A stretch of 14,511 bases of DNA from a virus (Duplodnaviria > Heunggongvirae > Uroviricota > Caudoviricetes). The position numbers and the translations under genes were made by a program. Under the pieces are notes generated by a model, which was not told the DNA's origin, searched no databases, and saw only the letters and a list, made by a program, of their open reading frames with translations. The stretch is taken from the IMG/VR virus record IMGVR_UViG_2579778535_000016, positions 1 through 14,511 of that record; one strand, written 5' to 3'. This document shows, in pieces, positions 1,232-1,658 of this stretch (within the stretch, counting starts at the first letter, position 1; the number at the start of each line of letters is the position of its first letter).

Positions 1232-1621
1232 TCACATCGCCGGGCAATCATCAAACTCACCAGACCGCGCATCGTTGATGATGTACGTGATCACTCCAAA
1301 CAGATGCGACTCATCATCAAAAAGGCTGGTCGGCTTTGGTATCTCCTCTACCGCTCCAGTCTCCAGATTGATCAGATGTGGTTTAGGGTAGCGCTTGTAC
1401 CGCTTCACCCTGAACTCATTATCTACAGAGCAAACCAGCAACGAGCCATCAAACGGCGTCAGTGAACTGTCAACGACGAGCAAAGCGCCGTACATGATGC
1501 CTTCTCGCCAGTACGTTTGGCCTGATCGCATGAAGTACGTTGCCGCTGGTTTGCTGATTAAAGTATCGTCGAGCGATATGCGCTGCTCAACGTAGTCTGC
1601 TGCTGGCGATGGGAATCCCAT
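1232..1621 (-). CDS. UmuD'-like SOS mutagenesis accessory protein (HumD-like, peptidase S24 fold), 129 aa
   Basis: Translation MGFPSPAADYVEQRI...ATYF...LLVVDS...NEFRVKRY aligns by eye with E. coli UmuD from its Cys24-Gly25 autocleavage site onward. ATG preceded by GAGGT RBS; perfect LexA box immediately upstream. Confidence 0.8.
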   Translation of the reverse strand: MGFPSPAADYVEQRISLDDTLISKPAATYFMRSGQTYWREGIMYGALLVVDSSLTPFDGSLLVCSVDNEFRVKRYKRYPKPHLINLETGAVEEIPKPTSLFDDESHLFGVITYIINDARSGEFDDCPAM

Positions 1622-1638
1622 GATGCACCTCAGATAGA

Positions 1639-1658
1639 TACTGTATTTATGTACAGTA
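1639..1658. promoter_or_regulatory. LexA (SOS) operator TACTGTATTTATGTACAGTA in the promoter of the UmuD'-like gene
   Basis: Palindromic CTGT-N8-ACAG matching the LexA box consensus TACTGTATATATATACAGTA, ending 18 bp upstream of the minus-strand start codon at 1621 and overlapping a plausible -10 region. Confidence 0.8.

What the first reader, a model, noticed from the sequence alone, without database searches (positions are those of the whole stretch)
1232..1658. LexA-controlled gene encoding a pre-processed UmuD' mimic next to the integrase
The encoded protein begins exactly at the position equivalent to the UmuD Cys24-Gly25 autocleavage site (MGFPSPAADYV...), so it corresponds to the activated UmuD' form with no need for RecA-mediated cleavage. 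By eye, the position aligned with the catalytic Ser60 of UmuD (SGDSM) reads SGQTY, a Ser-to-Thr change consistent with loss of protease function while keeping the dimer/UmuC-binding fold. A perfect LexA box overlaps its promoter. This resembles phage P1 HumD, a known UmuD'-like protein; here it is carried as a moron in a lambdoid-type prophage.
Basis: partly seen in the sequence, partly recalled or inferred. Interest (0 to 1): 0.5.

Follow-up and report, generated by a model that had tools for sequence, protein, structure and literature searches.

The report
Prophage HumD gene with LexA operator
This is an ordinary, already catalogued member of the phage HumD family: a ready-made copy of the activated UmuD' mutagenesis protein, placed behind an SOS (LexA) operator in a decayed E. 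coli prophage.

Summary
Window 1232..1621 (- strand) encodes a 129-aa protein that starts at the residue matching UmuD Gly25. Thr34 sits in the column of the catalytic Ser60, and Lys73 matches Lys97. An exact TACTGT-N8-ACAGTA LexA box lies at 1639-1658, 17 nt upstream of the ATG.

The interpretation also holds, but it is not new. The protein scores 216 bits (cut-off 120) over the full length of NCBIfam NF051876, "HumD family translesion DNA polymerase". It is 63% identical to P1 HumD and 65% to N15 gp26. The exact sequence is already in NCBI and UniRef under that name for E. coli.

Thr at the nucleophile position is the majority state in the close family (83 T, 36 S, 2 A). P1 HumD itself keeps Ser. 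Among more distant homologues, the Ser+Lys pair survives in 3 of 32 pre-truncated proteins against 47 of 55 that keep the N-terminal arm. This supports loss of protease constraint.

The promoter/operator layout (TTGATC, 18 nt, TACTGT) matches that of K-12 umuDC.

Two corrections. The host element is a deletion-riddled prophage at tRNA-Arg argW, not clearly lambdoid. The Thr is not special to this copy.

One side observation is unexplained: a family-wide C-terminal tail (EFDDCPVM) resembles the SSB tip (DFDDDIPF).

The parts
1232..1621 (-). humD coding sequence (129 codons plus stop). Encodes a UmuD'-like protein with Thr34 in the Ser60 column, Lys73 in the Lys97 column, and the C-terminal tail EFDDCPAM.
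   Evidence: ORF list. NCBIfam NF051876 HumD family, 216 bits, positions 1-129 of 129. Pfam Peptidase_S24. PHROG 811 UmuD-like. UmuD' structures 1UMU, 1I4V and 8GMT at E about 1e-21. dN/dS 0.13-0.22 against close alleles.
1628..1631 (-). Shine-Dalgarno GAGG, 6 nt before the ATG at 1621-1619.
   Evidence: Read directly from the sequence. GAGG/GGAGG occupies the same place in most related loci.
1639..1658 (.). LexA (SOS) box TACTGTACATAAATACAGTA as read on the gene's strand. Palindromic, ends 17 nt upstream of the ATG.
   Evidence: Unique in the window; 0 of 200 shuffles contain the exact 12-base pattern. Position conserved in 56 of 88 related loci. P1 carries an annotated LexA site 19 nt before humD. 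The K-12 umuDC operator TACTGTATATAAAAACAGTA has the same layout.
1653..1682 (-). Inferred sigma-70 promoter: -35 TTGATC (1677-1682), 18-nt spacer, -10 TACTGT (1653-1658). The -10 is the left half of the LexA box.
   Evidence: Same two hexamers (spacer 17) upstream of K-12 umuD. TTGATC at 17-18 nt before TACTGT/TGCTGT recurs in 17 distinct humD upstream regions. It scores below the threshold of the generic promoter scan, so it is inferred rather than shown.
1699..1716 (-). Terminator-like hairpin AGCCCAC-TTCG-GTGGGCT followed by TCTTCG. It lies after the upstream antirepressor fragment and would insulate humD from read-through.
   Evidence: RNA fold -13.9 kcal/mol, z = -3.1, 2 of 200 shuffles as stable. 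The T-run is too weak for the terminator scan.
1..1158 (+). Tyrosine integrase (385 aa), convergent with humD across a 73-nt gap. In matching genomes it lies next to tRNA-Arg(CCT) argW.
   Evidence: Pfam Arm-DNA-bind_3, Phage_int_M and Phage_integrase. tRNA-Arg(CCT) lies beyond the integrase in L007. Neighbouring host genes carry the Pfam families Form_Nir_trans, MlaA and Toluene_X; by order and size I read them as yfdC, mlaA and fadL.

Best explanation
The gene is a prophage-borne humD, a stand-alone homologue of umuD that is born in the activated UmuD' form.

Inferred mechanism. In an undamaged lysogen, host LexA sits on the box that overlaps the -10 hexamer and keeps the gene off. DNA damage activates RecA, LexA cleaves itself, and humD is transcribed together with the host umuDC operon. 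The product lacks the 24-residue N-terminal arm, so it needs no RecA-mediated self-cleavage. It dimerises and joins host UmuC to form a Pol V-like translesion polymerase earlier than the host's own UmuD could. This bypasses the cleavage checkpoint and the UmuD/UmuD' heterodimer degradation route.

The old protease site is vestigial. The nucleophile Ser has become Thr, and across the truncated clade the dyad drifts.

Shown here: the anatomy, family membership, operator conservation, purifying selection and dyad decay. Inferred from published work on P1 HumD (McLenigan et al. 1999, PMID 10559166, recalled from memory because the paper was not held): UmuC and RecA-filament binding and complementation of UmuD'.
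For: - Family membership: NF051876 equivalog, 216 bits against a cut-off of 120, full length. 63% identity with no gaps to P1 HumD. 65% to N15 gp26, HK639 and HK140 UmuD-like proteins.
- UmuD' core: 41% identity to K-12 UmuD from residue 25 onward. UmuD' crystal and NMR chains at E 1e-21.
- No arm: stop 19 codons upstream, with a Shine-Dalgarno at the right distance.
- Operator: exact LexA palindrome, conserved in position across 56 of 88 loci, annotated as a LexA site in P1, and of the same TTGATC/TACTGT design as K-12 umuDC.
- The gene is maintained. dN/dS is 0.13-0.22 against alleles 81-92% identical. The identical protein is indexed in 73 blocks of the assembly collection.
- No cognate umuC in the window or in 20-kb flanks of five matching loci: no IMS-family gene is listed. 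This matches the P1 situation.
- The host is E. coli, a species whose K-12 reference carries umuDC.
Against: - No experiment exists on this allele. LexA binding, expression and UmuC partnership are all inferred.
- The characterised member (P1 HumD) has Ser where this protein has Thr, and identity is only 63%.
- The surrounding prophage is decaying, so the gene could be on its way out despite the low dN/dS.
- The conserved C-terminal tail, absent from UmuD, shows the family does something that UmuD' does not. That function is unknown.
- The structure prediction was unusable (pLDDT 47), so fold retention rests on sequence similarity alone.
Confidence: 0.78

Rival explanations
1. HumD mainly modulates RecA filaments or the SOS response, for example by tuning prophage induction, recombination or LexA/repressor cleavage. 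In this view it binds RecA* as UmuD' does, and supplying Pol V is not its main role.
For: In HK140 the homologue sits in a block with a DinI (RecA-filament-binding) gene. Many loci put humD in an operon with another small ORF instead of giving it its own box. The family carries an extra conserved tail unrelated to UmuD' function. From memory, McLenigan et al. 1999 reported poor expression of P1 HumD from its native context, with complementation needing a high copy number.
Against: The UmuD' core is well conserved, and from memory P1 HumD binds UmuC and restores mutagenesis (PMID 10559166). The operator design copies umuDC. Nothing in the data separates RecA modulation from Pol V assembly.
Confidence: 0.12
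2. The Thr34/Lys73 pair is still a working hydrolytic dyad. HumD would act in trans as a peptidase on another substrate, for example host UmuD in a heterodimer or a phage repressor.
For: Within the close enterobacterial family the nucleophile column is almost only Thr or Ser (119 of 121) and Lys is kept in 119 of 121. From memory, UmuD cleavage is known to occur intermolecularly.
Against: In more distant pre-truncated homologues that keep the same C-terminal tail, the columns drift to P, A, Q, G and to R, C, V. Only 3 of 32 keep Ser+Lys, against 47 of 55 arm-bearing homologues. The residue before the nucleophile (Asp59 of UmuD) is hypervariable and the Met after it is replaced. I know of no S24 peptidase shown to work with Thr.
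Confidence: 0.04
3. The gene is a functionless passenger in a dead prophage, still intact only because decay has not reached it.
For: The prophage has lost most of its portal, its head genes and most tail genes, and its antirepressor carries an in-frame TAG.
Against: dN/dS is 0.13-0.22 against close alleles. The promoter, operator, Shine-Dalgarno and full-length ORF are all intact. The identical protein occurs both in the deleted element and in matching loci that still carry the long tail genes (980- and 833-residue products in L004/L006) missing from the window. The int-humD pair travels on different phage backbones.
Confidence: 0.05

Closest known systems
Bacteriophage P1 HumD (YP_006569.1)
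   Same: Both are 129 aa and 63% identical without gaps. Both start MGFPSPAADYVE at the UmuD Gly25 position and share the C-terminal tail GEFDDCP. Both have a LexA box about 17-19 nt before the ATG and no adjacent umuC.
   Different: P1 HumD keeps Ser in the nucleophile column (ADSHH), whereas the window has Thr (GQTYW). P1 humD lies on a phage-plasmid next to lxr and phd/doc. Here the gene sits beside an argW-type integrase in an integrated, degraded prophage.
N15 gp26, HK639 and HK140 gp28 'UmuD-like' proteins
   Same: 64-65% identity, the same length class, and Thr in the nucleophile column as here (GATHY). N15 has a LexA box with a TTGCAT-17-TACTGT layout. HK140 gp28 lies at the attP/integrase end of the genome.
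   Different: HK140-type genes overlap an upstream ORF and have no box of their own within 150 nt. N15 is a linear plasmid prophage.
E. coli UmuD / UmuD' (Pol V accessory subunit; PDB 1UMU, 1I4V, 8GMT)
   Same: 41% identity over the whole UmuD' core. Lys97 is conserved. The promoter/operator design is the same: TTGATC, 17-18 nt, TACTGT inside the LexA box.
   Different: The window protein has no 24-residue arm and no Cys-Gly cleavage site. Ser60 is replaced by Thr, with a one-residue deletion before the motif. It has 10 extra C-terminal residues (SGEFDDCPAM). It is not in an operon with umuC.
LexA and other S24 self-cleaving repressors (an older database name for this protein is 'LexA family transcriptional regulator')
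   Same: It shares the S24 catalytic-domain fold signature (Pfam PF00717; LexA chains at E 1e-5 to 1e-3).
   Different: No DNA-binding domain, no cleavage site and no Ser nucleophile. The NCBIfam LexA model scores 29.5 bits against a cut-off of 111.

Membership tests
HumD family (NCBIfam NF051876, equivalog) | Score above the curated cut-off over the full model | tested here: met
   216.3 bits against a cut-off of 120; residues 1-129 on model positions 1-129 of 129.
HumD family (NCBIfam NF051876, equivalog) | Protein begins at the position equivalent to the UmuD Cys24/Gly25 cleavage site, with no N-terminal arm | tested here: met
   Met1-Gly2 align to UmuD residues 24-25. An in-frame stop lies 19 codons upstream with no alternative start.
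HumD family (NCBIfam NF051876, equivalog) | Family-specific C-terminal extension NDARxGEFDDCPxx | tested here: met
   The window ends INDARSGEFDDCPAM. In 114 of 120 close clusters the [DE][FWY]D[DE] motif starts exactly 8 residues from the C-terminus.
HumD family (NCBIfam NF051876, equivalog) | Stand-alone gene without a cognate umuC partner | tested here: met
   No umuC-like ORF in the 14.5-kb window. No IMS-family gene in the 20-kb loci L004-L008.
HumD family (NCBIfam NF051876, equivalog) | LexA operator upstream (SOS regulation) | tested here: met
   At sequence level only. Exact TACTGT-N8-ACAGTA at 1639-1658, with position conserved in 56 of 88 loci. LexA binding itself cannot be tested with these tools.
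HumD family (NCBIfam NF051876, equivalog) | Functional replacement of UmuD' (dimer, binds UmuC and RecA filament, restores mutagenesis) | not testable with these tools
   Known only for P1 HumD (McLenigan et al. 1999, cited). Needs genetics and biochemistry.
Active S24 self-cleaving peptidases (UmuD, LexA, lambda CI) | Ser nucleophile in the SG[DS]SM motif | tested here: not met
   Thr34 occupies the Ser60 column; the motif reads SGQTY.
Active S24 self-cleaving peptidases (UmuD, LexA, lambda CI) | Lys general base | tested here: met
   Lys73 aligns with UmuD Lys97.
Active S24 self-cleaving peptidases (UmuD, LexA, lambda CI) | Ala/Cys-Gly scissile bond in an N-terminal segment | tested here: not met
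   The protein starts at the Gly, so there is nothing to cleave.
LexA family transcriptional regulators (a database name for this protein) | N-terminal winged-helix DNA-binding domain; passes the LexA model | tested here: not met
   Only the S24 domain is present. TIGR00498 lexA scores 29.5 bits against a cut-off of 110.95 and matches only model positions 90-167.

The most novel reading that the evidence does not exclude
The HumD family is more than a truncated UmuD. Every member carries a conserved acidic-aromatic C-terminal tip (window GEFDDCPAM; family GEFDDCPVM; distant members EFDDTPF, EFHDNLPF, EWDDLPVI). End-anchored, this tip lines up with the E. coli SSB tip MDFDDDIPF. The tip stays conserved while the protease dyad decays. 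It might act as an SSB C-terminus mimic, docking HumD (and any HumD2-UmuC complex) onto proteins that read the SSB tail, or competing with SSB for them at damaged forks. I found no description of this in the searchable literature.
Probability: 0.12. Interest if true: 0.55.

Novelty: already known. Interest (0 to 1): 0.15.

Why it matters
For this window it matters little. It is a correct annotation of a known accessory gene, and the exact protein is already named in public databases.

More generally, HumD genes let temperate phages hand their host a pre-activated Pol V subunit under SOS control. This can raise damage-induced mutagenesis in lysogens. A blastn search with the 561-bp humD locus found a match in 2,074 of 5,426 complete E. 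coli genomes, most covering only part of the query.

Two family-level points from this check may deserve a specialist's attention. The first is the measurable decay of the Ser-Lys dyad once the cleavable arm is gone. The second is the strictly conserved, SSB-tip-like C-terminal tail, whose function is unknown.

Tried and rejected
- Structure prediction from a 45-sequence family alignment gave mean pLDDT 47 and pTM 0.35. This is unusable, so no fold search was run.
- The generic sigma-70 and terminator scan found nothing in 1100-2100. The promoter was instead inferred by comparison with K-12 umuDC and related loci.
- The original HumD paper (PMC94175) is not held. Its content is cited from memory and through citing papers.
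- Searching complete E. coli genomes with 1150-2600 by megablast matched only the antirepressor part, not humD. The blastn search found humD-family genes widely, but the listed full-coverage matches were 68-88% identical. The exact allele was found by protein look-up in draft assemblies.
- An upstream extension was considered and rejected. Database entries of 135-148 aa are start-codon over-calls that read through the LexA box.
- 'LexA family transcriptional regulator' was considered and rejected, because there is no DNA-binding domain.
- A literature search for an SSB C-terminus mimic in phages found nothing relating to HumD.

Full report
**What is in the sequence**

The - strand ORF 1232..1621 encodes 129 residues beginning MGFPSPAADYVEQ. 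Reading upstream in frame, a stop lies 19 codons before the ATG, with no ATG, GTG or TTG in between. A GAGG Shine-Dalgarno lies 6 nt before the ATG.

An exact TACTGT-N8-ACAGTA palindrome occupies 1639-1658. It is the only CTGT-N8-ACAG in the window. The 12-base pattern appeared in none of 200 dinucleotide-preserving shuffles.

The gene converges on a 385-aa tyrosine integrase (1..1158, + strand) across a 73-nt gap.

**What the protein is**

- Pfam finds only the S24 peptidase domain.
- NCBIfam places it in the equivalog model NF051876, "HumD family translesion DNA polymerase". The score is 216 bits against a cut-off of 120, end to end on the 129-position model.
- PHROGs calls it UmuD-like.
- The best solved relatives are UmuD' chains 1UMU, 1I4V and 8GMT (E about 1e-21).
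- BLASTP gives 41% identity to K-12 UmuD, starting at UmuD residue 25 (UmuD sequence verified from NC_000913.3).
- It is 63% identical to P1 HumD over all 129 residues without gaps.
- N15 gp26, HK639 and HK140 gp28 are 64-65% identical.
- The identical sequence is already deposited many times for E. coli, under the names "HumD family translesion DNA polymerase", "S24 family peptidase" and "LexA family transcriptional regulator".

**The active-site claim**

All three alignment methods put Thr34 in the column of UmuD Ser60 (SGQTY against SGDSM). There is a one-residue deletion just before the motif, and Lys73 sits in the column of Lys97.

This is not peculiar to the window. In 120 close family clusters plus the window itself (121 sequences), the nucleophile column is Thr 83, Ser 36 and Ala 2. 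Lys is present in 119 of 121. P1 HumD, the characterised member, has Ser; N15 and HK140 have Thr.

I then tested whether Thr reflects relaxed protease constraint. I searched 1.84 billion representatives clustered at 50% identity and split full-length hits by whether they keep an N-terminal arm.
- Of 55 arm-bearing homologues, 47 keep Ser+Lys.
- Of 32 pre-truncated ones, only 3 keep Ser+Lys (Fisher p = 1.2e-12).

Distant truncated members that still carry the HumD tail show P, A, Q or G in the nucleophile column and R, C or V in the Lys column. For this one protein it remains an inference.

**Regulation**

- P1 carries an annotated LexA site 19 nt before humD, and N15 has a box in the same place.
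- Among 88 loci (P1, N15, HK140, five near-identical copies of this locus, 79 IMG/VR loci and the window itself), 56 have a perfect CTGT-N8-ACAG starting 32-41 nt before the ATG.
- Most of the others either have two imperfect tandem boxes or overlap an upstream ORF, which suggests an operon.
- The generic promoter scan was negative.
- The window has TTGATC (1677-1682), an 18-nt spacer, then TACTGT (1653-1658), which is the left arm of the box. K-12 umuDC has TTGATC, 17 nt, TACTGT, with its box in the same register.
- The TTGATC-17/18-TACTGT (or TGCTGT) arrangement recurs in 17 distinct humD upstream regions.

The operator overlapping the -10 hexamer is thus a conserved design shared with umuDC. 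Actual LexA binding is untested.

A stable hairpin at 1699-1716 (-13.9 kcal/mol, z = -3.1) follows the upstream gene. Together with its own promoter, this gives humD the look of an autonomous cassette.

**Is the gene maintained?**

Nei-Gojobori dN/dS against alleles of 92% and 81% protein identity is 0.13 and 0.22. Against more distant family members it is 0.15-0.34. The identical protein is indexed in 73 blocks of the assembly collection.

**Context**

Matching genomes place the integrase next to tRNA-Arg(CCT). The adjacent host genes carry the Pfam families Form_Nir_trans, MlaA and Toluene_X, which by order and size I read as yfdC, mlaA and fadL, followed by thiolase and enoyl-CoA hydratase genes that I read as fadI and fadJ. 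This is the E. coli argW attachment region.

The prophage is a wreck.
- The portal ORF covers only about the first 160 of 587 model positions.
- ORF 7340..7942 joins a tape-measure N-terminus to the C-terminus of a large tail protein.
- An antirepressor (PHROG 1726, 264 positions) is split by an in-frame TAG at 2029-2031. It is a single 242-aa ORF in an E. coli O111 relative.

Other matching loci still carry long tail genes (980- and 833-residue products) that are missing from the window (L004, L006).

Close humD alleles sit beside the same kind of integrase on myovirus-like backbones (L089). One sits at the far prophage end, next to biotin-synthesis genes (L092). The gene therefore behaves as an end-of-prophage cargo gene alongside acyltransferases of the kind that modify O-antigen. 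"Moron" is fair; "lambdoid" is not established.

**Mechanism**

The best-supported account has four steps. LexA represses the gene. SOS induction releases it. The product, already in the UmuD' form, dimerises and pairs with host UmuC (K-12 carries umuDC). This skips the RecA-dependent cleavage step.

The biochemical steps rest on P1 HumD work (McLenigan et al. 1999, PMID 10559166). That paper was not held and is summarised here from memory and from PMC7092418.

Rivals are a RecA/SOS modulator role, a surviving trans-acting Thr-Lys peptidase, and a dead passenger gene. All are weaker for the reasons given in their entries.

**Comparison and novelty**

All sequence-testable defining features of the HumD family are met; function could not be tested. 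Two of the three defining features of an active S24 peptidase are not met. The "LexA family regulator" label fails, because there is no DNA-binding domain. Nothing here goes beyond what is known for P1, N15 and HK-type phages, so the finding is a correct rediscovery.

**Side observation**

The family has a 10-residue C-terminal extension beyond the end of UmuD. In 114 of 120 close clusters E-F-D-D-C-P-V-M starts exactly 8 residues from the end, with F-D-D invariant. It persists in distant members whose dyad has decayed. Only 1 of 62 arm-bearing homologues has it, and that one looks like a mis-started HumD.

K-12 SSB ends in M-D-F-D-D-D-I-P-F. Anchored at the C-terminus, the acidic residue, Phe-Asp-Asp and a hydrophobic last residue coincide with G-E-F-D-D-C-P-V-M. 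Some HumD relatives even end in -PF.

Whether this tail mimics the SSB tip is pure hypothesis. The Pro-Phe-COOH end that I recall as critical for SSB is replaced by Val-Met in most members. No literature on it was found.

**Verdict**

- Observation: confirmed.
- Interpretation: supported.
- Novelty: none for the gene itself.
- Interest: low.

Noticed in passing
window 1235-1264 (- strand; residues 120-129) and family alignments A1, A3, A4: All HumD-family proteins carry a strictly conserved C-terminal extension absent from UmuD (SGEFDDCPAM here; EFDDCPVM in 114 of 120 close clusters, always 8 residues from the end). End-anchored, it resembles the E. coli SSB tip MDFDDDIPF. Its function is unknown; it may be an SSB-tail mimic.
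   Followed up: partly
related proteins P0135-P0283: Across homologues clustered at 50% identity, the Ser+Lys catalytic pair is intact in 47 of 55 proteins that keep the N-terminal arm but in only 3 of 32 pre-truncated ones. Pre-truncated UmuD'-like proteins also exist well beyond the enterobacterial HumD group.
   Followed up: yes
window 7340-7942 and 9529-10149 (- strand): The prophage is a deletion remnant. The portal ORF matches only about positions 15-159 of a 587-position portal model. ORF 7340..7942 fuses a tape-measure N-terminus to the C-terminus of a roughly 900-residue tail protein. Head genes are missing between the terminase (10162..11634) and the major tail protein (8684..9427).
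   Followed up: partly
window 1744-2523 (- strand): An antirepressor-like gene (PHROG 1726) is split by an in-frame TAG at 2029-2031 into a 164-aa ORF and a 94-codon tail with no start codon. The homologous gene is a single 242-aa ORF in E. coli O111 strain 110512.
   Followed up: partly
window 2561-3270 (- strand): Two overlapping ORFs (2932..3270 and 2561..2965, the second with a P22_AR_C domain) look like the two halves of one frameshifted antirepressor. The first half gave no Pfam hit, so this is unverified.
   Followed up: no
L095 100-170 (K-12 umuDC upstream) compared with window 1639-1682: The humD promoter/operator uses the same hexamers as chromosomal umuDC (TTGATC, 17-18 nt, TACTGT inside the LexA box). 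This suggests humD arose from a umuD gene that lost its first 24 codons but kept its control region.
   Followed up: partly
L003 (HK140), L009, L014, L019 and others; L085, L086, L088: Regulatory variants occur in the family. Some humD genes overlap an upstream small ORF and have no box within 150 nt (HK140 type, next to dinI). Some have two imperfect boxes (CTGG...ACAG / CTGT...CCAG). Some have two perfect tandem boxes.
   Followed up: no
L004-L008, L089-L092; window 4022-5035 and 5049-7283: The int-humD pair at tRNA-Arg argW occurs on different phage backbones (siphovirus-like with a tailspike, and myovirus-like with baseplate genes). It always sits beside acyltransferase or MBOAT genes of the kind that modify surface polysaccharide. 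The 744-aa tailspike carries an SGNH/GDSL esterase domain.
   Followed up: no
database entries P0131-P0134, P0005, P0044: Several public gene calls for this protein family are 6-19 residues too long because the caller started inside or upstream of the LexA box. Names vary between HumD family, S24 peptidase and the misleading 'LexA family transcriptional regulator'.
   Followed up: yes
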